Positions 7,502-61,753 of a stretch of 64,000 bases of DNA are shown piece by piece. Where the stretch lies: contig JANXCQ010000001.1 of the NCBI GenBank assembly GCA_025060195.1, positions 128,352 through 192,351 of the forward strand. The letters are read 5' to 3'. Under the pieces are notes generated by a model that worked only from the letters and a program-made list of their open reading frames with translations, made no database searches and was not told the DNA's origin. Origin of the DNA: Gemmatales bacterium (lineage in GTDB: Bacteria; Planctomycetota; Planctomycetia; Gemmatales; HRBIN36). A program made the translations under genes and the position numbers. Each line of letters starts with the position of its first letter. Position 1 is the first letter of the stretch.

Positions 7502-7588
7502 GGAGGGGTGGCCGAGCGGCCGAAGGCGCCGGTCTCGAAAACCGGTAGGCAGGCAACTGCCTCGTGGGTTCGAATCCCACCCCCTCCG
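7502..7588 (+). tRNA. tRNA-Ser (anticodon CGA)
   Basis: 87 nt. Acceptor GGAGGGG/CCCCTCC. Anticodon stem CCGGT/ACCGG with loop CTCGAAA. Long variable arm GGCAG-GCAA-CTGCC. T arm GTGGG-TTCGAAT-CCCAC. Discriminator G. CCA is not encoded. Confidence 0.93.
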
Positions 7589-7590
7589 CT

Positions 7591-10280: not shown

Positions 10281-11399
10281 ATGGTAGAGGAATTCAATCT
10301 TTTCTTAGCTCATCTCCCAAGCGCGTGGCGTATAGTTCATCAGGGAGGCAGACCCTATCATCAAGGTTGGACGAACTTGCTCGTACAGGGAGACAATCTG
10401 CAAGTACTTGCTCAATTCCTGCAATGGCAGATCGTTCGCGGTCAAGTACGCTTGGTTTATCTAGATCCGCCATTTGCTACTAATCAGGATTTCCTGTGCG
10501 ACAATCAGCGGGCTGCCACCGTCAGCCGTCCGCAGCGTGGCCTCCTTGCGTATTCCGATAAATTTGACCGGGATAGTTACCTAAATTTTCTGAGGCAGCG
10601 TTTAGTTCTCCTACATGAGTTGCTAGCAGACGACGGCGCCATATATGTTCATACGGATTGCAAGATCGGACACTATGTAAAGATCTTGATGGACGAAATC
10701 TTCGGTTACGATAACTTCATCAACGACATTACACGCATCAAATGCAACCCAAAAAACTTTGCCCGCCGTGCTTTTGGTAACATTAAGGACACAATTCTCT
10801 TTTATACTAAATCCCGAAACTATATCTGGAATGACTCTCGAGAACCGATGAGCCAAGAGCAAATTGAGCGCTTATTTCCCAAAGTGGACCCGTGGGGCCG
10901 ACGTTACACGACCACCCCTCTGCATGCCCCTGGTGAAACCCTCGAAGGGCCCACGGGCCAGCCTTGGCGTGGTCGCCTGCCTCCGCCAGGACGTCATTGG
11001 CGCTATCCCCCTGAGGAACTCGACCGCCTGGATCAAGCAGGACTTATCGAGTGGTCCTCCTCAGGAAATCCTCGTAAGATTGTCTATGCTGATGAAGTCC
11101 TTTCACGGGGCAAAAAACGGCAGGATGTTTGGGTCTTCAAAGACCCCCCTTATCCCCGCTATCCCACCGAAAAAAACTTAGACCTGCTGAAGACTATCAT
11201 CCTTACTTCCACCCATCCGGGGGACTTAGTACTCGATTGTTTCGCCGGGTCGGGAACCACTTTAGTTGCCGCTGAGCTGTTGGGTCGTCGTTGGATTGGC
11301 GTGGACAATTCTCCTCTAGCCATACAGGTAGCATGCCGCCGACTGGCAGAACTGAGCCATCTCACCCATTTCACGCTGATTGAAACGGCAGGTAGTTGA
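10281..11399 (+). CDS. Site-specific DNA methyltransferase, beta-class (N6-adenine or N4-cytosine)
   Basis: 372 aa. Catalytic motif IV LVYLDPPFA precedes SAM-binding motif I DCFAGSGTTLVAA, which is the beta-class order. No nuclease-like neighbour is visible. Confidence 0.85.
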   Translation: MVEEFNLFLAHLPSAWRIVHQGGRPYHQGWTNLLVQGDNLQVLAQFLQWQIVRGQVRLVYLDPPFATNQDFLCDNQRAATVSRPQRGLLAYSDKFDRDSYLNFLRQRLVLLHELLADDGAIYVHTDCKIGHYVKILMDEIFGYDNFINDITRIKCNPKNFARRAFGNIKDTILFYTKSRNYIWNDSREPMSQEQIERLFPKVDPWGRRYTTTPLHAPGETLEGPTGQPWRGRLPPPGRHWRYPPEELDRLDQAGLIEWSSSGNPRKIVYADEVLSRGKKRQDVWVFKDPPYPRYPTEKNLDLLKTIILTSTHPGDLVLDCFAGSGTTLVAAELLGRRWIGVDNSPLAIQVACRRLAELSHLTHFTLIETAGS

Positions 11400-38132: not shown

Positions 38133-41100
38133 TCATGGCCCAGGCAGGCAAATTGTCCGCACTAACTGGTCAATCTCGTCGAGTTCCGCCTGCAATGCGC
38201 GGCGAATGAGCTGACGTAATTTGCCAATCGGCTGGCCTAAGGTTTTTTCGTCCATCGTACGTACCATGTCGAGCACACGCTTGTGGCAGCTTCGACCCAA
38301 GTTGGCCAGACGCCTATGGTGTTCGTTAGTGCGATCAAAGGTGAGAATCTGCACCACTTCAAACGGCCTGCGATGGATGTCTCGTTCACCGCCGCCCCGG
38401 GTGGCGCCAAAGACGCCTTTCGTTTGATAAGGCTTGATTTCCTTGTCAATGGACGGCGCATTGAGTACAGCGCTCAAGTAATAGGCCTCTGCCGCGTTAC
38501 GGAGATCGAGCCAATATGTCTTCGTGTCGCCGACAAATCCGCGAACTGGCAAGCCGTGCACCAGCTGCTTACTCACTTTAGTCGTGTCTATCACACAGGC
38601 ACACAGATGAGTGCCGCTCGTGTTATACAGCAGCTTGTAAACGCCCGTAGGCTTCTGGGCAGTGAGTTTTCCTTGCCAATCGAGATAATCGAGTAGTTCT
38701 TCCTGAGATTTACGGTGTTTGTTCCAAATGTCCTCGGCCTGGCGGAGCCAATGAGCCAAGCCCGTCTTGCTGAGGCGGACAGCTTCGGTGTCGGTGAGCA
38801 GTTTTCCTCGGGTCCACGGTAAGACCACCAGGGAAAGCTGCCGCCAACCAAACGGCAGCATGTCGTCGGACAACAACGTGGCAAAGAGGAAGTCGGCTTC
38901 GACCCGGCCGCGTAAACGAATTCCTTTCCAGGGAGGTTTTGCTTGAGGCTCGATAGCGGGGTCGGTTTCCAACTGTGGCCGCGCGACGTCGGTAACCAGC
39001 GCTTCCATAGGGCGAACAAACCATAGACAGCGCGGCACAATCGTGGCCCCTTGGCGAAGCCGCTCGAAGTAGGGGCTTTTGCCCAGAGGCGACGGCGCGC
39101 TATACGTGGACTGGCGTAGCGCCAGGGCTCGCTGCGCTTCCGGCCAACTCAAATTGCGGCGGGGCAATTGACCGGCCAGCTGGAGCAGGGGAACCGCTTG
39201 GCTCACTGACTGAGTGGCAGCGCTATCCCGCTTGACCCAAATCAACACACAGGCCGGCACATGGAAGAGCGGAATCACTTGTTCGCAGTCCACCAGGAGC
39301 CGCGCCTGCGACACGTAATATCTGCGGAAATGGGCATGTTGTTTAGCGCCGGTCAGGATGCTGCGCGGCATAACGAAGGCGAGAGTGCCTTGCTCGGCCA
39401 AATAACGATCAGCGCAGAAGGCAAAAAAGAGCGTCGCCAGTTCGGTCTGGGTGAACAGGTGAGCATCTCGTTTATTCAGGAGATGATAACGCTCCAGCAC
39501 CAGGCGGCGCACGCGTTCCTGATAATCCCTGCGGCGTATGTAGCGATAGGAAAGCCAGGGCGGATTGCCGACGACAAAATGGAACTTTTTCCACGCCAAT
39601 AGGGCGGGTCGCCAGGCATTTTTCAGGATGAATTGCCAGACAGTGTCCGTGGCTGGCGCTTGCATCAACCAGCGCATCAGCCGCAAGTTGTTCAGCCAGA
39701 GCTGCGGCTGTGGTACCTGACGTTGGTCCAACCAACGGCGGAAACCAGCGTGAGCGTCGGTTTCGACATAGGCTGGGTCGGCCAATTCGAAGAGCTTGTC
39801 CACGCATTGATTGAATAAACTCGGCTGATGGGCCATATCGGCTGGGACGTCGAAACTGTGGGGGAGGTGGCGCGGTTTCTTCTTGCCGGTGCGTTGGGCC
39901 AAGTCGTCTACCCGAACCGGGATACTCAGCACCTGCCCGTTCAAGGAATCGTTTGGCAGGGCCAGGGTGTCGGCCATATAGATGGGCACGTGGAACGACT
40001 GCCGATACTCCTGCAAATCCCTGCCCAGCGCCAGAACGAAATTGGTTCGGGCAATGGTGACGGCCAAGGGATGAACATCCAGGCCCGCCAAGTGCTGTGC
40101 GCAATGACTCACCAGTTGGGCGCCCGACATGCCGCTCTCGCGTAGCAATCGAATGGCCGTGACTAAGAACGTACCCGAGCCGCACGCCGGATCGATGAGC
40201 GACGCGGAAGAGTTCTGTCCCGGAAAACCCGCCTGCCGCAGCGTCAACTCGGCCAACCAGTCGGGAGTGTAAAACTCGCCCAAGTCGTGCCGCGTTTCCG
40301 GGTCAACTAACTCTTGGTAGAGTTCTTTGAGTAAGTCTTCCTGGATGTCCGTGAGGCTGTAGGCCGCGGTCAAACGACACGCCAATCCATGCAGCAGCGA
40401 GCGCACCGTGTCCTTTTCCAGCGCCGCCCAGGAGAAGAAGTCCTCCCCGACGAAATTGTCCAGACCTAATTGCACGAAGGTTTGCCCGGAAATAAGACCG
40501 TCTATTTCACCGCTGTGCGGTGCGCGGCGGTTCAGAACGACAAACGCCAGCACCCGCGCGAATAGAGCCAGATAAGTATGACGAAGGAACAACTCCTCGT
40601 GCCCGACGTCGCTGCCGTAAACAATACTCAACAAGCTCTGCCACTCCGCAAACTTGGTTTGGGCCGCGGGGTGGCTACCATGCCGTTGCCAAGCCTGCCG
40701 AAGCAGATAGAGGCTACGCCAGAAAGTGGGGCTATGCTGGCCGAACCGCAGCGCCACATCATCCGTCGTGGGCCGTAGTTGTTTTTCATGGAACAGGTAA
40801 CAATCGAGCCAGAGCCGACATTCCGCCGCCTGCTCCACGCGCAGTTGCAAGGCATTCACAGGTTCGAGCCGGCCCTCGCGTAGGGCATATACTTCCAGCG
40901 TTTCCCCATCACTTAACACGCCGAAATAACGCTCGGGATGCTCCTGGTTCAACAAATACCGCAACAACTGTTGTTGGCCTTCCCTGCGTTTAGCGTCATC
41001 GAGGCGGCGCTCAAACTCGAAGATCAGGTCGCCGTAGAGCACATCGGCAAAACCACCCCGCACGCGCAGTCCTGGGATGTGCTTTTCCAGTTGCAGCGGC

Positions 41101-41255
41101 TCGGCCACTGCCAGGCGGGGAAAGCTCTCCCGCAAAAACTGCAAAAACCCATCGCGGATACTGTCTTCCGAGGCGCCACGACTGCGCATCAGACGGAGTT
41201 GGTCAAGATAATTCCGTAAACAATCGCTGAAGTCGCTCATGCAGCTCACCAACAT
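38133..41255 (-). CDS. MmeI-like Type IIG/IIL N6-adenine DNA methyltransferase fusion protein (nuclease motif altered)
   Basis: 1040 aa. N-terminal GFADVLYGDLIFEFER block (nuclease-like region). EFYTPDW, motif I IDPACGSGTFLV, motif IV VVGNPPWLSY (gamma class). Long C-terminal specificity-type region. Alternative start ATG at 41240. Confidence 0.8.
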   Translation of the reverse strand: MLVSCMSDFSDCLRNYLDQLRLMRSRGASEDSIRDGFLQFLRESFPRLAVAEPLQLEKHIPGLRVRGGFADVLYGDLIFEFERRLDDAKRREGQQQLLRYLLNQEHPERYFGVLSDGETLEVYALREGRLEPVNALQLRVEQAAECRLWLDCYLFHEKQLRPTTDDVALRFGQHSPTFWRSLYLLRQAWQRHGSHPAAQTKFAEWQSLLSIVYGSDVGHEELFLRHTYLALFARVLAFVVLNRRAPHSGEIDGLISGQTFVQLGLDNFVGEDFFSWAALEKDTVRSLLHGLACRLTAAYSLTDIQEDLLKELYQELVDPETRHDLGEFYTPDWLAELTLRQAGFPGQNSSASLIDPACGSGTFLVTAIRLLRESGMSGAQLVSHCAQHLAGLDVHPLAVTIARTNFVLALGRDLQEYRQSFHVPIYMADTLALPNDSLNGQVLSIPVRVDDLAQRTGKKKPRHLPHSFDVPADMAHQPSLFNQCVDKLFELADPAYVETDAHAGFRRWLDQRQVPQPQLWLNNLRLMRWLMQAPATDTVWQFILKNAWRPALLAWKKFHFVVGNPPWLSYRYIRRRDYQERVRRLVLERYHLLNKRDAHLFTQTELATLFFAFCADRYLAEQGTLAFVMPRSILTGAKQHAHFRRYYVSQARLLVDCEQVIPLFHVPACVLIWVKRDSAATQSVSQAVPLLQLAGQLPRRNLSWPEAQRALALRQSTYSAPSPLGKSPYFERLRQGATIVPRCLWFVRPMEALVTDVARPQLETDPAIEPQAKPPWKGIRLRGRVEADFLFATLLSDDMLPFGWRQLSLVVLPWTRGKLLTDTEAVRLSKTGLAHWLRQAEDIWNKHRKSQEELLDYLDWQGKLTAQKPTGVYKLLYNTSGTHLCACVIDTTKVSKQLVHGLPVRGFVGDTKTYWLDLRNAAEAYYLSAVLNAPSIDKEIKPYQTKGVFGATRGGGERDIHRRPFEVVQILTFDRTNEHHRRLANLGRSCHKRVLDMVRTMDEKTLGQPIGKLRQLIRRALQAELDEIDQLVRTICLPGP

Positions 41256-57821: not shown

Positions 57822-58987
57822 AAAGCGAAGCAGTAGAGTATCTCCGCGGCTTGCTCGACCTGACGTAACTCAATGTATTCGTCAGCCGTATGAGCTTGAG
57901 CAATGTCCCCAGGACCAAATACCACACACGGAATACCGACGGCCTGCAACGTGGCGGCGTCCGTGCCATAAGCCACCGTTCCTGTCTCCGCATGACCCAG
58001 CACCTGACGCACTGCTTCCTGGAGGCGCGACACCAGCGCCTCCTTGCCTTCCCCCGACAGAGGCGGCAATTTCATCCACGGCCGCTCTTGCCACCACGTC
58101 GTAGCGTCAAGACGATGCCGCAAATAATCCGCCAACTCTTCCGTCACCTGTTCCAAGTCTTCGCTCGGCAACACGCGGCGATCCACTTCTATCGTGCAGC
58201 AGTCGGGCACAATATTCGCGCTGATCCCGCCCTCGATGCGTCCCACGCTCAAGGTAGCAGGTCCTAACTCAGCGTCTCGCCGATAGTTATTCAGCCAGGT
58301 GGCATAACCTTCGATAGCCGAGACCAACCGTGCCATACGGTAAATCGCATTCACTCCCAACTCAGGTTGCGAACTATGGCAACTGCGTCCTGTCGTGTGG
58401 ATGCGCCATCGAACAATCCCTTTGTGAGCCGTAATAATCCGTAAATTCGTAGGCTCGGCGACAATAGCCCCGTCAGCACCCAGCGGCCTGGAAGTTAGCG
58501 CGCGAATCCCGGTGAAAGTATATTCCTCATCCACGACACAAGCCAACATGATGGAACAACGCCGCTCCGCGGGTTGACGCAGTAGCCGATCACACGCAGC
58601 CAACATTGCCGCTAAGCCCCCCTTCACGTCGCAGGCGCCGCGACCGTAAAGCCGACCATTGGTGACCTGAGCGGCAAAAGGCGCTACGGTCATGCCCCGC
58701 GCTGGCACGGTATCCTGATGCGCTTCCCAAAGCCAAGTGGGCGAAGTCGGACAGCCAGGTAAATAAGCCACGATATTATCTCGTCGCGGTGCTACCTTCT
58801 GCCGCTCATAACGGACTCCCCAACTGCGAAATAAATCCTCTAAAAAGTCCGTGACCGCCGATTCGTCATATCCCGGCTCCGAGACCTCGCAGCCCATGGG
58901 GTTCTGACTGGGTCGGCGCACCAATTCCGCTAACCACTCGATCGCTAAACTCATCCCTCGGCCTCCGCTAAAGCATCGAGGCGCCAA
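57812..58987 (-). CDS. M20-family metallopeptidase (ArgE/DapE-like deacylase)
   Basis: 391 aa. EAHQDTVP, GRGACDVKGG and VVDEE metal-ligand blocks. The start may be MSLAIEW at 58954. Confidence 0.85.
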   Translation of the reverse strand: MAPRCFSGGRGMSLAIEWLAELVRRPSQNPMGCEVSEPGYDESAVTDFLEDLFRSWGVRYERQKVAPRRDNIVAYLPGCPTSPTWLWEAHQDTVPARGMTVAPFAAQVTNGRLYGRGACDVKGGLAAMLAACDRLLRQPAERRCSIMLACVVDEEYTFTGIRALTSRPLGADGAIVAEPTNLRIITAHKGIVRWRIHTTGRSCHSSQPELGVNAIYRMARLVSAIEGYATWLNNYRRDAELGPATLSVGRIEGGISANIVPDCCTIEVDRRVLPSEDLEQVTEELADYLRHRLDATTWWQERPWMKLPPLSGEGKEALVSRLQEAVRQVLGHAETGTVAYGTDAATLQAVGIPCVVFGPGDIAQAHTADEYIELRQVEQAAEILYCFALWP

Positions 58988-58994
58988 CTTCGCC

Positions 58995-59243
58995 TTAGCC
59001 AGTTGTGTCCTCGCGGCGCGAGCGTAGCTCTTCGAGCACTTGCTGAGCTCGTTCTAAATCGGCACGATGAACCCAGACCTCCGCAGGAATTGCCTTGAGC
59101 GAGCCGAAACTGGCATCGAGGAACTCCCCCACCACCTGGCACGAGATTCCCTGACTTTCCAGAGCGGTCTTGATCGCAAAGGCTTCTTGCGTGTCCTCAA
59201 CCGCAATTAGTCGCACGACTTCTTTAGGATCGTTCTCACTCAT
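58995..59243 (-). CDS. DUF2007-like small protein
   Basis: 82 aa. The pattern ...EAFAIKTALESQGISCQV... ...VWVHRADLERAQQVLEEL is typical of DUF2007. Confidence 0.65.
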   Translation of the reverse strand: MSENDPKEVVRLIAVEDTQEAFAIKTALESQGISCQVVGEFLDASFGSLKAIPAEVWVHRADLERAQQVLEELRSRREDTTG

Positions 59244-59455
59244 AAAGGTAGCTCCTTAGCCTCCTCTCTCTGATTTTCCTGATAGAATACAAGGCTAATT
59301 CTATGCATGTCAGCGGGCAGTCAGAGCACAACCCCAATCAGGCAGACGCTTGTCGGTCACTAAAGGAGCCACGCTTCATGCTCCGAACGATGATTACAGC
59401 CGCTGCGCAACTCGAAACGGCTCATGCTCGCATGGTCGGTCGAGCGGGTGGCCTG

Positions 59456-59828
59456 CGACTTCCGTTTTAGAAAATAGCGAGCCATGTCGCCTAGAAGGCG
59501 AGGTACTATACCTGCTAATGCGAATGCCCTGCGATATTCAAATTCGACCGGAACGAGGAGAACGATTGCAGTCGCGGCACTATACGTGTTAATGCCGCGG
59601 CCACGAGATAGCCAAATTCGATCAACGAGGGGGGTGCATGATTCCTGACGAAGCATTATGCTTGGTAATCTGACGGCCTTGCGGTAGTCAAATTCGACTA
59701 TAACCGGGTCCCCGATTAATAGCGTAGCACTGTCTCGGCCTTTGACACAGTGCTGCGTTAGTCAGATTCGATTGCAACGACTTGCGCGATTGGAAACGAA
59801 GCACCGTCCTGGCTATGGATATTACGCT
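59456..59828. repeat. Degenerate ~75-bp tandem repeat array (4 clear units plus 1 decayed unit)
   Basis: Units 59531-59604, 59605-59680, 59681-59754 and 59755-59828. The core (T/C)CA(A/G)ATTCGA is at 59538, 59612, 59688 and 59762. GATT and GCA(C/T) anchors sit at fixed offsets. Details are in findings. Confidence 0.8.
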
Positions 59829-60410
59829 CGAACTAGGCCACTGATGTTATAATGCGACTAAGCTCGTGATGTCTTCCGACAATTGAGCTTATCTAAGCCG
59901 CACGGAAATATTGATAAGCATGACTTAGCACGATGCTGATAGACCCCAGTCCCCTAAGCCGACGCAACAAATTTACTTTGCAGAAACCCGTGTCATCTGG
60001 GCCTGGATATTTGCTCTCTGAAGTTTAGTTTGAGGGACACGAACAAAGTCAGTGGCCTAACAGTGTCCGAGTCATCGTCCTCAGGCGGCACACGGCGTGA
60101 ACATCTAAATTGAGCTTTATATTGCGCACATGAGGGCTAAGACGTGCACAATAGGATCATAGACGAACGGCGAACTTGACAAGAGTGACTTAGATTTGTT
60201 CGCCACTCGAGGCGCCAGTCGTAGCCCTCCTCAAGTGAAGTTTCTAATTTTCCACCCATTAGAGGAAAACCTTTCACTAGTTGCCGTGTTACTAAGTCCA
60301 GGCAATCTGGATGGGACGGTCACGCGCTCACACCAGGATGTAAGACAGGATTTGTAAGATGGTATATGTAGTAAATAAAAAGCTCGCGCCAATGTAATTG
60401 GCGGCCCGCA

Positions 60411-60545
60411 GCAGATTTATTCAGATTTCTGGAATAGGATACGTGGCAATAATCCGACGGCCGGTAAATGCAACGCAGATGCCAGTGGACTAATTCAGAT
60501 TTTGGGGATGGAATATAGACGGAATATAAAGGCGGACAGGAATAT
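60411..60545. repeat. Cluster of short direct repeats (GCAGAT / TTCAGATTT / GGAATA)
   Basis: GCAGAT at 60411 and 60475. TTCAGATTT at 60420 and 60494. GGAATA at 60431, 60510, 60521 and 60539. Confidence 0.6.
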
Positions 60546-60949
60546 GATCGAACTTGACTATTTCCTTAGACCTCGTGTAAAGGCACCAAATTTAATATGC
60601 TGTCCATAGTGTTATGATGTGTTACTGTTTTGATTGTGTTCCGTCTAAGGTTACAAATATAGCAGAGGCAAACCACTCTGCCATAAGCCCTAAGAATCGT
60701 GATTTTTCCTTCTCGTCAAACCCGCCAGGTCCGAAAATTTGCCCGCGCTTCCGCCATGCTAGGTGACGAAAATACACAAGTCATTTATGAATCACGACTC
60801 ACATGAAAATCTTACCGCGTTACTCAAGATGTCTCAACCGTATCAAAAAGGGCGTGGCAAAAGATGCGTTGCCATGCGCGTTTAGCCTTTCGGGGAGCTT
60901 AGTCGGTGCCGGGTGTCAAATCCAGAACTCACATGAGAACGGAGAGGCG

Positions 60950-61195
60950 ATGAGCCAAGATCAGCACTGCGTTGCCTGCCCACGACGTGATGCTTGCGGT
61001 TGCGCTAACTGCGCTGACATGAGTACGGCCGTGGTCCAGTCTCGGCCGCGACCCAGACCTTGTCGTTCAGCAACAACGACCAGGAAGATCAGGTCGCCTC
61101 GGCGCGACGGGTTGACTAGAGTGCATGGCGACTCGGTCGGATGCTCGTCTGGGTGCTACAAGACCGTGGCTTTCGCAGATTGTGGGGTCGCCTGA
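60950..61195 (+). CDS. Possible small Cys-rich protein (81 aa), speculative
   Basis: GGAGAGG lies 2 nt before ATG 60950. MSQDQHCVACPRRDACGCANC ... GCSSGC ... ADCGVA. GC is higher than in the AT-rich region just upstream. No family recognised. Confidence 0.25.
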   Translation: MSQDQHCVACPRRDACGCANCADMSTAVVQSRPRPRPCRSATTTRKIRSPRRDGLTRVHGDSVGCSSGCYKTVAFADCGVA

Positions 61196-61285
61196 AGTTA
61201 TAGCGTTACCCAGGTGAGTATCATTCGTCCCATTAAGTGATACACAAGCAAGATCGTTGTCAGTACACTTAGAAGGAGGGTAGGT

Positions 61286-61753
61286 ATGGTGAAGACGCTA
61301 GGGTTGTGGGTGGCGTGCCTGACAGGTGTGGCAATGGTCGGAGCTGTTGGTCAAGACGGCAAAGGAGATAAGCGGGAAGGCCAAGGAGACAAGATAGAGG
61401 TTCGTCAACTGAATCTCACAGGGGTTAGGCTCAACCCGAGAGAAGCGGAACGGAGCCGGGTTGACATGGCCGTGGTCATCACGGATGCGGAGGGACTGGC
61501 CGATGCTTTTCCCGATGAGAATTCTCAGCAAGCCATCGCAGCGCAGGTGGATTTCAGGAAGGAGAAGCTACTGTTCTTTCGCTGGGCTGGCTCAGGCGGC
61601 GACCGCATCAGACCGCAAGTACAGCGGGCGAATGGTAATGTCAGGGTGGTATTCAAATACCAGCGGGGGCTCACTCATGATTTGCACGGACATCACTACC
61701 TCTTTGCCGTACCACGGGGCGTTCGCTGGGAAGTGGAGCAGGAGAAACAGTAA
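61286..61753 (+). CDS. Hypothetical secreted protein
   Basis: 155 aa. GGAGGG RBS. Signal peptide LGLWVACLTGVAMVGAVG. Confidence 0.6.
   Translation: MVKTLGLWVACLTGVAMVGAVGQDGKGDKREGQGDKIEVRQLNLTGVRLNPREAERSRVDMAVVITDAEGLADAFPDENSQQAIAAQVDFRKEKLLFFRWAGSGGDRIRPQVQRANGNVRVVFKYQRGLTHDLHGHHYLFAVPRGVRWEVEQEKQ

What the first reader, a model, noticed from the sequence alone, without database searches (positions are those of the whole stretch)
59456..59828. Degenerate ~75-bp tandem array with conserved near-palindromic core and unit-internal hairpins
There are four head-to-tail units of 74/76/74/74 nt. The core is TCAAATTCGA at 59538 and 59688, CCAAATTCGA at 59612 and TCAGATTCGA at 59762, giving spacings of 74/76/74. 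The register is held by two further anchors: GATT at +26/+28/+26/+26 and GCAC or GCAT at +39/+41/+39/+39 from the core. A shared lead-in GCG/GAG-N-TA precedes the core, and AACGAGG follows it in units 1 and 2. The core is 8/10 self-complementary, as expected for a dimer-binding site. Units 1 and 3 each contain a perfect hairpin with a 13-nt loop, built from different sequences: CGCGGCA 59573-59579 with TGCCGCG 59593-59599, and AGCACTGT 59726-59733 with ACAGTGCT 59747-59754. A probable decayed unit upstream (59456-59530) carries TCGCC-TAGAA-GGCGA at 59487-59501. Unit lengths vary and are not multiples of 3, so this is not a coding repeat. I do not recognise it as a described repeat or RNA family. 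It could be phased protein-binding sites about 7 helical turns apart, tandem small-RNA or hairpin modules, or a decaying minisatellite.
Basis: seen in the sequence. Interest (0 to 1): 0.7.

Follow-up and report, generated by a model that had tools for sequence, protein, structure and literature searches.

The report
Degenerate 75-bp non-coding tandem repeat
A short stretch of non-coding DNA in an uncultured planctomycete (Gemmatales) genome holds five to six old, heavily diverged head-to-tail copies of a ~75-bp unit. Only a ~14-bp motif has stayed intact, so this is a lineage-specific bacterial minisatellite, possibly an array of protein docking sites, and not a new RNA or gene family.

Summary
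The 74/76-bp periodicity is the strongest periodic signal in the 64-kb window (match fraction 0.44-0.48, against a shuffle maximum of 0.36). Tandem Repeats Finder misses it because the units are only 40-65% alike.

The array is not a tRNA array, a CRISPR array, an Rfam family or a coding repeat. An apparent protein-level hit to two repeat "proteins" was an artefact of satellite DNA being translated.

The units share no consensus RNA fold. Only the unit-3 hairpin is more stable than chance.

The array lies in a 2-kb gap with few ORFs and lower GC. The closest available relatives keep the adjacent operon but lack this gap. No related array was found in genome, metagenome, viral, plasmid or phage collections.

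The only part that looks constrained is an asymmetric core, TAGYCARATTCGAY. It occurs four times in direct orientation about seven helical turns apart, and twice more inverted 400-790 bp downstream.

My best reading, at moderate confidence, is an iteron-like array of protein recognition sites, either still in use or left over from an extinct element. Neutral minisatellite decay is nearly as likely. This is a new member of a known kind and of low to moderate interest.

The parts
59444..59463 (+). Remnant of a further upstream unit (its 3' end): GCGGGTGGCCTGCGA matches the lead-in GCGAATGCCCTGCGA of U0 at a spacing of 76
   Evidence: family D5 (80% identity over 15 nt, in register)
59464..59537 (+). 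Unit U0 (74 bp), decayed. It has no core (GTTTTAGAAA in its place), but its 3' 52 nt are homologous to U1 and U2
   Evidence: D1; 40-53% identity to the other units
59538..59611 (+). Unit U1 (74 bp). Core TCAAATTCGA at 59538-59547; hairpin CGCGGCACTA/TAATGCCGCG at 59573-59599
   Evidence: I6; fold z = -1.3
59612..59687 (+). Unit U2 (76 bp). Core CCAAATTCGA at 59612-59621; small hairpin AAGCA-TTA-TGCTT at 59651-59663
   Evidence: fold z = +0.4
59688..59761 (+). Unit U3 (74 bp). Core TCAAATTCGA at 59688-59697; palindrome with 17-nt arms at 59720-59736 and 59744-59760
   Evidence: I1; fold z = -4.1 on the + strand, -2.8 on the - strand
59762..59835 (+). Unit U4 (74 bp). Core TCAGATTCGA at 59762-59771; the 3' half is decayed
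60545..60564 (-). Inverted copy of the extended core (AAATAGTCAAGTTCGATCA). It matches 59605-59624 at 17 of 20 positions and is the longest inverted repeat in the gap
   Evidence: PWM score 24.6, within the range of the array sites
60168..60185 (-). Second, weaker inverted core copy (CTCTTGTCAAGTTCGCCG), containing the exact 10-mer GTCAAGTTCG
   Evidence: PWM score 17.5; the next-best site in the window scores 14.1
59244..61285 (.). The 2-kb gap that holds all of the above. It is ORF-poor, has lower GC (0.41-0.55 against 0.53-0.62 in the flanking genes) and is lineage-specific. It lies between the divergently oriented DUF2007-M20-ADH-VTT-SHMT operon (- strand) and a 155-aa ORF (+ strand)

Best explanation
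The array is an old, lineage-specific, non-coding minisatellite. A ~75-bp segment was duplicated in tandem at least five or six times, and the copies have since drifted to 40-65% identity. One asymmetric 14-18-bp motif, TAGYCARATTCGAY, has been kept. It occurs four times in the same orientation at 74/76/74 bp, which is about seven helical turns and so places the sites on the same face of the helix. It occurs twice more in inverted orientation 400-790 bp downstream in the same gap.

The most likely reading is that the motif is, or was, the recognition site of a sequence-specific DNA-binding protein. The array would then work like iterons or subterminal repeats, with monomers loading side by side on one face of the helix and the inverted sites allowing pairing or looping. 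It could be a cis-element still in use in this chromosome, or the relic of an extinct replicative or mobile element that brought in the lower-GC gap.

Shown: the periodicity, the divergence between units, the excess conservation of the core, the inverted copies, and the absence of coding or RNA-family signal. Inferred: that a protein binds the motif, which protein it is, and any present-day function.
For: The periodicity is far above chance and the similarity extends across the unit. Among U1-U4 the 10 core columns are more conserved than any 10-column block in 99.6% of column permutations.

The exact 10-mer GTCAARTTCG occurs four times in the window, three of them in the 2-kb gap, including two on the opposite strand outside the array. 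About 0.008 exact copies would be expected in the gap by chance (my arithmetic). The longest inverted repeat of the gap pairs a core with 60545-60564 at 17 of 20 positions. A PWM built from the six sites finds nothing comparable elsewhere in the 64 kb.

The conserved flanks make the motif asymmetric, and all array copies are co-oriented. Unit length is held at 74-76 bp despite roughly 0.7 substitutions per site (Jukes-Cantor estimate from the identities; inference).

The alternatives were tested and failed: tRNA, Rfam, a consensus RNA fold, and coding sequence. The sequence is identical in three independent assemblies, so it is not an assembly artefact.
Against: No DNA-binding, replication, partition, transposase or integrase gene lies next to the gap or anywhere in the window. 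The motif occurs at no other locus in the window.

The array and the whole gap are missing at the syntenic position in the closest relatives available (75-77% M20 protein identity). No related array was found in genome, metagenome, viral, plasmid or phage collections.

The core-conservation test is post hoc and rests on four sequences. U0 has lost the core, and both edges of the array are decaying, as expected without selection.
Confidence: 0.4

Rival explanations
1. Purely neutral relic: a replication-slippage or unequal-crossover minisatellite in junk-like intergenic DNA that is simply decaying. On this view the better-preserved core and its two inverted look-alikes are chance, or leftovers of older duplications and inversions, and have no function.
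For: The units are only 40-65% identical, both array edges are decayed and U0 has lost the core. The array is lineage-specific, lies in a non-syntenic lower-GC gap and is absent in relatives. It has no homologues anywhere and no partner gene. Unique, unrelated non-coding satellites with long repeat units are documented in prokaryotes (PMC6749651).
Against: The core is conserved beyond the unit background (p = 0.004). There are two further exact 10-mer copies in inverted orientation within 1 kb. Unit length has been retained despite heavy substitution, and bacteria tend to delete useless DNA (both inference from established knowledge).
Confidence: 0.35
2. Relic end of a non-autonomous mobile or replicative element. 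On this view the direct sites form one end (or an iteron block), the inverted sites form the other end (or an operator), and the genes have been lost. This is a special case of the best explanation in which no function remains today.
For: Four sites in one orientation are followed by two in the opposite orientation within about 1.03 kb. The gap has lower GC than its flanks and sits at a synteny break.
Against: The gap contains no transposase, integrase or rep remnant in any frame. No terminal inverted repeats or target-site duplication bound the gap. There is no second copy in the 64 kb and no match in plasmid or phage collections.
Confidence: 0.12
3. Tandem small-RNA or hairpin modules: each unit is transcribed and folds into a functional stem-loop, comparable to tandem sRNA genes or ToxI-like processed repeats.
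For: The unit-3 hairpin is highly stable (z = -4.1) and has two G-U pairs that favour the + strand. The whole array folds somewhat better than shuffled sequence (z = -2.7 on the + strand, -3.3 on the - strand). A common-register helix is 60% paired, against 24-54% in controls where one side of the pairing is shifted.
Against: RNAalifold finds no consensus structure. The hairpins of U0/U2, U1 and U3 have different centres, and four of the five units fold no better than shuffles. There is no Rfam hit even at E <= 10. No promoter or terminator frames the units, and no toxin or nuclease gene lies downstream. In the common-register test, 44 of 500 shuffles reach the observed pairing.
Confidence: 0.06
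4. Decayed coding repeat: a pseudogene of a protein with ~25-aa repeats, or the 98-aa minus-strand ORF 59360-59656 being a real gene.
For: 75 bp corresponds to 25 codons. The 98-aa ORF is called as a gene in the Logan assemblies. Exhaustive HMMER gave hits with E = 1.5e-27 and 1.9e-16 to repeat 'proteins'.
Against: Those hits are ORFs read through unrelated satellite DNA (192 bp x 21 copies and 210 bp x 7.7 copies) in low-GC, gene-poor contigs. Their E-values are inflated by repetition, and the DNA similarity is limited to a 26-nt stretch. Stops occur in all frames, there is no Pfam signal, unit lengths of 74/76 shift the frame, and the ORF has no homologue outside the same strain.
Confidence: 0.03
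5. Chromosomal replication origin or another replication landmark. The supporting features would be the divergent gene orientation, the AT-richer gap and the repeated boxes.
For: Genes diverge from the gap, and local GC skew turns from negative to positive there. GC is lower in the gap.
Against: The skew change follows gene strand and is not sustained across the window. No DnaA box with at most one mismatch lies in the gap. No dnaA or dnaN is nearby, and gidA is 43 kb away.
Confidence: 0.03

Closest known systems
Prokaryotic non-coding satellites/minisatellites with long repeat units (survey: Subirana & Messeguer 2019, PMC6749651; also mycobacterial MIRU/ETR-type intergenic VNTRs, from my own knowledge)
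   Same: An intergenic, head-to-tail array of a few copies of a unit tens of bp long. The unit length is not a multiple of 3. The array is unique to one locus and one lineage.
   Different: Catalogued satellites are near-identical copies found by TRF-like tools. This array is so diverged (40-65% identity) that TRF misses it, yet it keeps its register and one conserved motif. No copy-number variation was seen among the three assemblies.
Iteron and centromere-like repeat arrays of plasmids (for example F sopC, 12 x 43-bp units each carrying a SopB site; Rep iterons with an inverted partial copy as operator). From my own knowledge.
   Same: A short recognition motif is embedded in a longer direct-repeat unit and phased at a whole number of helical turns, with additional inverted copies nearby.
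   Different: There is no adjacent rep, par or sop gene. The setting is chromosomal. The spacing (~75 bp) is longer than typical iterons (~22 bp). No sequence similarity to plasmids was found. Protein binding is untested.
Subterminal transposase-binding repeats of Tn7-like or Mu-like elements (from my own knowledge)
   Same: Several co-oriented sites at one side and inverted sites at the other.
   Different: There is no transposase, no terminal inverted repeat or target duplication, and no cargo. The regular 74-76-bp spacing is not typical of these elements.
tRNA gene arrays and CRISPR arrays (similar period of ~70-76 bp)
   Same: The period is close to tRNA length, or to repeat plus spacer length. 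A TTCGA string occurs in the core.
   Different: ARAGORN and the Rfam tRNA model find nothing. Similarity is spread over the whole unit instead of being split into repeat and spacer. There are no cas genes in the window.

Membership tests
Prokaryotic non-coding minisatellite (tandem repeat) | Head-to-tail copies of one unit, with significant self-similarity at a constant offset | tested here: met
   Autocorrelation is 0.44-0.48 at offsets 74 and 150, against a shuffle maximum of 0.36. Three 52-nt copies are 71-73% identical. Self-blastn gives E = 6e-7. TRF itself is negative.
Prokaryotic non-coding minisatellite (tandem repeat) | Non-coding: no open frame and no protein homology | tested here: met
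   The apparent hits were shown to be artefacts.
tRNA gene array | Cloverleaf detectable by ARAGORN or the Rfam tRNA covariance model | tested here: not met
   ARAGORN finds only tRNA-Ser at 7502-7589. Rfam at E <= 10 gives no tRNA hit in 58500-61500.
CRISPR array | A conserved repeat of 24-48 nt alternating with unrelated spacers | tested here: not met
   Conserved columns are scattered over the unit: the core, GATT, CG, GCAC and TAAT. The 52-nt similarity blocks span what would be spacer.
CRISPR array | cas genes or a leader nearby (not obligatory for orphan arrays) | tested here: not met
   No cas Pfam family among the ORFs of the window.
Described RNA family (Rfam 15) | A match to a covariance model | tested here: not met
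   The only hit was a chance-level SNORD10 match (E = 3) outside the array.
Tandem structured-RNA modules (ToxI-like or tandem sRNAs) | A secondary structure shared by the units and supported by covariation | tested here: not met
   RNAalifold gives 0 and -0.99 kcal/mol. The common-register helix is 60% paired and 44 of 500 shuffles do as well.
Tandem structured-RNA modules (ToxI-like or tandem sRNAs) | Transcription, plus a partner toxin gene or per-unit promoter and terminator | tested here: not met
   No ORF longer than 53 aa lies downstream until 60803. No + strand promoter-like or terminator-like site was found. Transcription itself cannot be tested with these tools.
Iteron / centromere-like protein-binding array | A short conserved motif in direct repeats at helically phased spacing | tested here: met
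   The cores lie at 59538, 59612, 59688 and 59762, a spacing of 74/76/74 bp or about 7 turns. Core conservation has p = 0.004.
Iteron / centromere-like protein-binding array | A cognate binding-protein gene (rep, parB, sopB and the like) in cis | tested here: not met
   No such Pfam family in the flanking genes or elsewhere in the window.
Iteron / centromere-like protein-binding array | Demonstrated protein binding | not testable with these tools
   This needs EMSA, DAP-seq or ChIP.
oriC | A cluster of DnaA boxes and a genome-wide GC-skew minimum | tested here: not met
   No TTATCCACA with at most one mismatch in the gap. The skew change is local only. Whole-genome skew could not be tested.

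The most novel reading that the evidence does not exclude
The array is a working cis-element of a Gemmatales chromosome. In this reading, a phased set of four co-oriented sites plus two inverted sites for an unlinked DNA-binding protein builds a higher-order nucleoprotein complex (centromere-like, replication-control or long-range regulatory). The 75-bp unit length would be held by selection for same-face binding, which would make it a chromosomal iteron-like system with no known counterpart in Planctomycetes.
Probability: 0.15. Interest if true: 0.6.

Novelty: new member of a known kind. Interest (0 to 1): 0.25.

Why it matters
If the core is a live binding site, the locus would be a handle on DNA-protein architecture in Planctomycetes, a phylum whose chromosome biology is barely charted and where almost no cis-elements are known.

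If it is only a decaying minisatellite, its value is methodological. Standard repeat finders (TRF) miss arrays that are this diverged, and ORFs called through such arrays seed spurious protein families with highly inflated E-values. Here that produced one hit annotated as an 'autotransporter'.

In either case the finding is confined to one uncultured lineage and has no demonstrated function.

Tried and rejected
1. tRNA array. The 74-76-nt unit and the TTCGA string suggested it, but ARAGORN and Rfam were negative and no T-arm pairing could be drawn by hand.

2. CRISPR array. There is no repeat/spacer contrast and there are no cas genes.

3. Coding remnant. Six-frame translation is full of stops and Pfam is empty. 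Exhaustive HMMER with the 98-aa minus-strand ORF gave striking E-values to P0126 and P0127. Fetching their DNA showed perfect 192-bp and 210-bp satellites in contigs of 32-43% GC that share only a 26-nt stretch with our array. The E-values were inflated because both query and target are repeats. The last word-indexed protein search, run with an alignment of the three sequences, returned only the ORF itself.

4. Orthologous comparison. The operon next to the gap is conserved in five related assemblies or contigs, but the upstream region is different and short in each and contains no core or periodicity. Homologues of the 155-aa ORF on the other side lie in unrelated neighbourhoods without arrays. 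No alignment for covariation or footprinting was therefore possible.

5. Public DNA scans with the double-core pattern. They gave 51 genome, 93 metagenome and 8 viral stretches, almost all single matches in diverse organisms and none from a named planctomycete. None matched the unit profile. The source genome itself is not among the species representatives.

6. blastn of the whole gap against plasmids and phages gave no match.

7. oriC. There are no DnaA boxes, and the skew change is local.

8. Per-unit sigma-70 or ECF-type promoters. By eye, -35-like and -10-like strings exist but with non-functional or inconsistent spacers (25-27 nt for sigma-70; 18 or 22 nt for AAC...CG). I did not pursue this.

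9. A higher-order 150-bp repeat. The strong offset-150 signal is explained by the -2/+4 indels in U2, which make 74+76 constant. It is not a dimeric unit.

Full report
**Observation.**
- The cores lie at 59538, 59612, 59688 and 59762.
- GATT and GCAC/GCAT keep the stated offsets from the core.
- AACGAGG follows the core in units 1 and 2.
- The two perfect hairpins and the TCGCC-TAGAA-GGCGA hairpin in the upstream unit are all present.

Tandem Repeats Finder reports nothing here even at minimum score 30, but the periodicity is real.
- The match fraction of 59456-59840 against itself peaks at offsets 74 (0.441) and 150 (0.438). The best value over all offsets in 300 shuffles is 0.36.
- In a sliding scan of the whole 64-kb window, the array gives the three highest values, up to 0.483, against a mean of 0.332 and an sd of 0.016.
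- The similarity is not limited to the 10-nt core. The repeat finder returns three 52-nt copies at 71-73% identity with spacings of 74 and 76, plus the four 14-nt cores. Self-blastn aligns 130 nt at 67.7% identity with E = 6e-7.

Aligned core-first, the units are U0 59464-59537, U1 59538-59611, U2 59612-59687, U3 59688-59761 and U4 59762-59835 (alignment A2). Pairwise identities are 40-65%. U0 has no core. A 15-nt fragment at 59444-59458 shows that a still older unit lay further left (family D5). The sequence is identical in two independent Logan assemblies of the same strain, so it is not an assembly artefact.

**What it is not.**
- *tRNA or a known RNA family.* ARAGORN finds only tRNA-Ser at 7502-7589. 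Rfam finds nothing in 58500-61500 at E <= 10 apart from a chance-level snoRNA match outside the array, and only that tRNA in the whole window at gathering thresholds.
- *Coding sequence.* All six frames of the 2-kb gap carry 19-41 stops, and a Pfam scan of the six translations is empty.
- *CRISPR.* Conserved columns are scattered over the unit and do not split into repeat and spacer. No cas gene, and no transposase, integrase, rep or parB gene, is detectable among the ORFs of the window.
- *oriC.* There is no DnaA box with at most one mismatch in the gap. The local change of GC skew follows gene orientation and is not sustained across the window.

**A false lead.** A 98-aa minus-strand ORF (59360-59656) runs through U0-U2 and is called as a gene in the Logan assemblies. 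An exhaustive HMMER search with it gave E = 1.5e-27 to a 1603-aa protein and E = 1.9e-16 to a 541-aa protein. Both are near-perfect repeat 'proteins'.

I fetched their DNA. They are ORFs read through satellites of 192 bp x 21 copies and 210 bp x 7.7 copies, in gene-poor contigs of 43% and 32% GC. At the DNA level only a 26-nt stretch resembles our array, and only in one of the two. The E-values are one short chance match multiplied by the repetition in both query and target. The coding-remnant idea is therefore rejected, and the ORF has no homologue outside its own strain.

**RNA structure.** Folded alone, only U3 is more stable than shuffled sequence (z = -4.1 on the + strand, -2.8 on the - strand). 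U1 gives -1.3, and U0, U2 and U4 are about 0.

The hairpins are not in register. In A2 columns, U0 and U2 centre near column 46, U1 near 51 and U3 near 55. RNAalifold finds no consensus structure with the units cut core-first or core-centred (0 and -0.99 kcal/mol).

A helix in the U1 register (columns 38-47 with 55-64) is 60% paired across the five units, against 24-54% when one side is shifted by a few columns, and 44 of 500 shuffles do as well. This is at most the trace of an ancestral unit-internal palindrome that has since decayed. U3 has rebuilt a longer palindrome of its own. No promoter-like or terminator-like site frames the units on the + strand.

**Context and conservation.** The array lies 220-590 bp upstream of the DUF2007-M20 peptidase-ADH-VTT-SHMT operon, which is on the minus strand. 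It sits inside a 2,042-bp ORF-poor gap (59244-61285) with GC of 0.41-0.55, against 0.53-0.62 in the flanking genes. The organism is a Gemmatales MAG.

The closest relatives in a 5.8-billion-protein collection have M20 proteins only 69-77% identical. I fetched the loci for the 71-77% hits. They keep the operon, but upstream of DUF2007 each has a different, short (350-440 bp) spacer and different neighbouring genes. The unit profile, the core pattern and autocorrelation find nothing in these loci. Homologues of the 155-aa ORF on the other side of the gap sit in three unrelated neighbourhoods, also without arrays.

A double-core pattern scan returned 51 genome, 93 metagenome and 8 viral stretches. 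Almost all are single matches in unrelated organisms, and none resembles the unit beyond the pattern itself. blastn of the gap against plasmids and phages gave no match. Within the window the unit profile finds only the five units. As far as the available data go, the array and its gap are specific to this lineage.

**The one constrained-looking part.** Among U1-U4, the ten core columns are conserved more than any ten-column block in 99.6% of column permutations (p = 0.004; this test is post hoc and rests on four sequences). With its flanks, the conserved motif is TAGYCARATTCGAY. It is asymmetric, and all four array copies point the same way.

The motif recurs outside the array. The exact 10-mer GTCAARTTCG is found four times in the window. 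Three are in the gap, two of them on the minus strand at 60171-60180 and 60549-60558. By my arithmetic, about 0.008 exact copies would be expected in 2 kb on both strands. The longest inverted repeat of the gap pairs the U2 core (59605-59624) with 60545-60564 at 17 of 20 positions. A PWM built from the six sites scores them 17.5-25.9, while the next-best site in the 64 kb scores 14.1 (the six sites are the training set).

The spacing of 74/76/74 bp is about seven helical turns. Unit length has been kept despite roughly 0.7 substitutions per site (a Jukes-Cantor estimate from the identities; this is inference).

**Interpretation.** The array is a real, old, lineage-specific, non-coding minisatellite.

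I judge it most likely (about 0.4) that its core is, or was, the recognition site of a sequence-specific DNA-binding protein. On that reading the arrangement is iteron-like: four co-oriented sites on one helical face and two inverted sites downstream. It would be either a cis-element still in use or the relic of an extinct replicative or mobile element that brought in the lower-GC gap.

Purely neutral decay of a slippage-generated satellite is nearly as likely (about 0.35). That reading is favoured by the lack of any partner gene, of conservation in relatives and of other copies. Unique non-coding satellites with long units are known in prokaryotes (PMC6749651). RNA modules, a coding remnant and oriC are each unlikely.

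**Novelty.** The array is a new member of a known kind (bacterial intergenic tandem repeats), unusual mainly for its degree of divergence with a preserved register and core. Interest is low to moderate unless protein binding or transcription is demonstrated.

Noticed in passing
window 60100-60410: Three nested inverted repeats (60112-23/60374-85, 60132-43/60218-29, 60164-75/60198-209). The + strand folds better than shuffled sequence (z = -2.7), and a minus-strand terminator-like hairpin at 60403-60387 is followed by a T run. This may be a structured RNA or a transcript end in the same gap.
   Followed up: partly
window 60803-61195 (+): A 130-aa ORF lies in the GC-normal right part of the gap. 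It is not called as a gene in the Logan assemblies and has no Pfam hit, so its coding status is unclear.
   Followed up: no
window 61286-61753 (+): A 155-aa ORF with a signal-peptide-like N-terminus and no Pfam hit. It has only three homologues (58-61% identity), two of which carry NCBI records (one named Gemmatales), and each lies in a different gene neighbourhood. Its DNA shows an offset-174 self-similarity of 0.43, the second strongest periodic signal in the window.
   Followed up: partly
window 60867-60868; L002: The only difference between the window and the SRR15826900 assembly across the 2-kb gap is CG->GT at two adjacent positions, inside a minus-strand terminator-like hairpin (60874-60855).
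   Followed up: no
L166 5934-7545; L167 6106-10208: Two public 'proteins' (541 aa, named an autotransporter by JGI; and 1603 aa) are ORFs read through perfect 210-bp and 192-bp satellites in gene-poor, low-GC contigs. They are annotation artefacts that attract repeat-containing queries with highly inflated E-values.
   Followed up: yes
L120 1465-1835; L068; L128; L161: Metagenome and viral contigs with two or three matches each to the double-core pattern. These are other tandem repeats that happen to contain TCAAATTCGA, and they are unrelated to the unit profile.
   Followed up: partly
window 59360-59656 (-): The 98-aa ORF called as a gene in the Logan assemblies runs through units U0-U2 in shifting frames and has no homologue outside the strain. 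It is most likely a spurious gene call.
   Followed up: yes
window 38133-41255 (-) and 10281-11399 (+): A 1040-aa Type IIG-like restriction-modification enzyme (N6_Mtase, MmeI_Mtase and Eco57I domains) and a separate N4/N6 DNA methylase. These are the only defence-type genes seen in the window.
   Followed up: no
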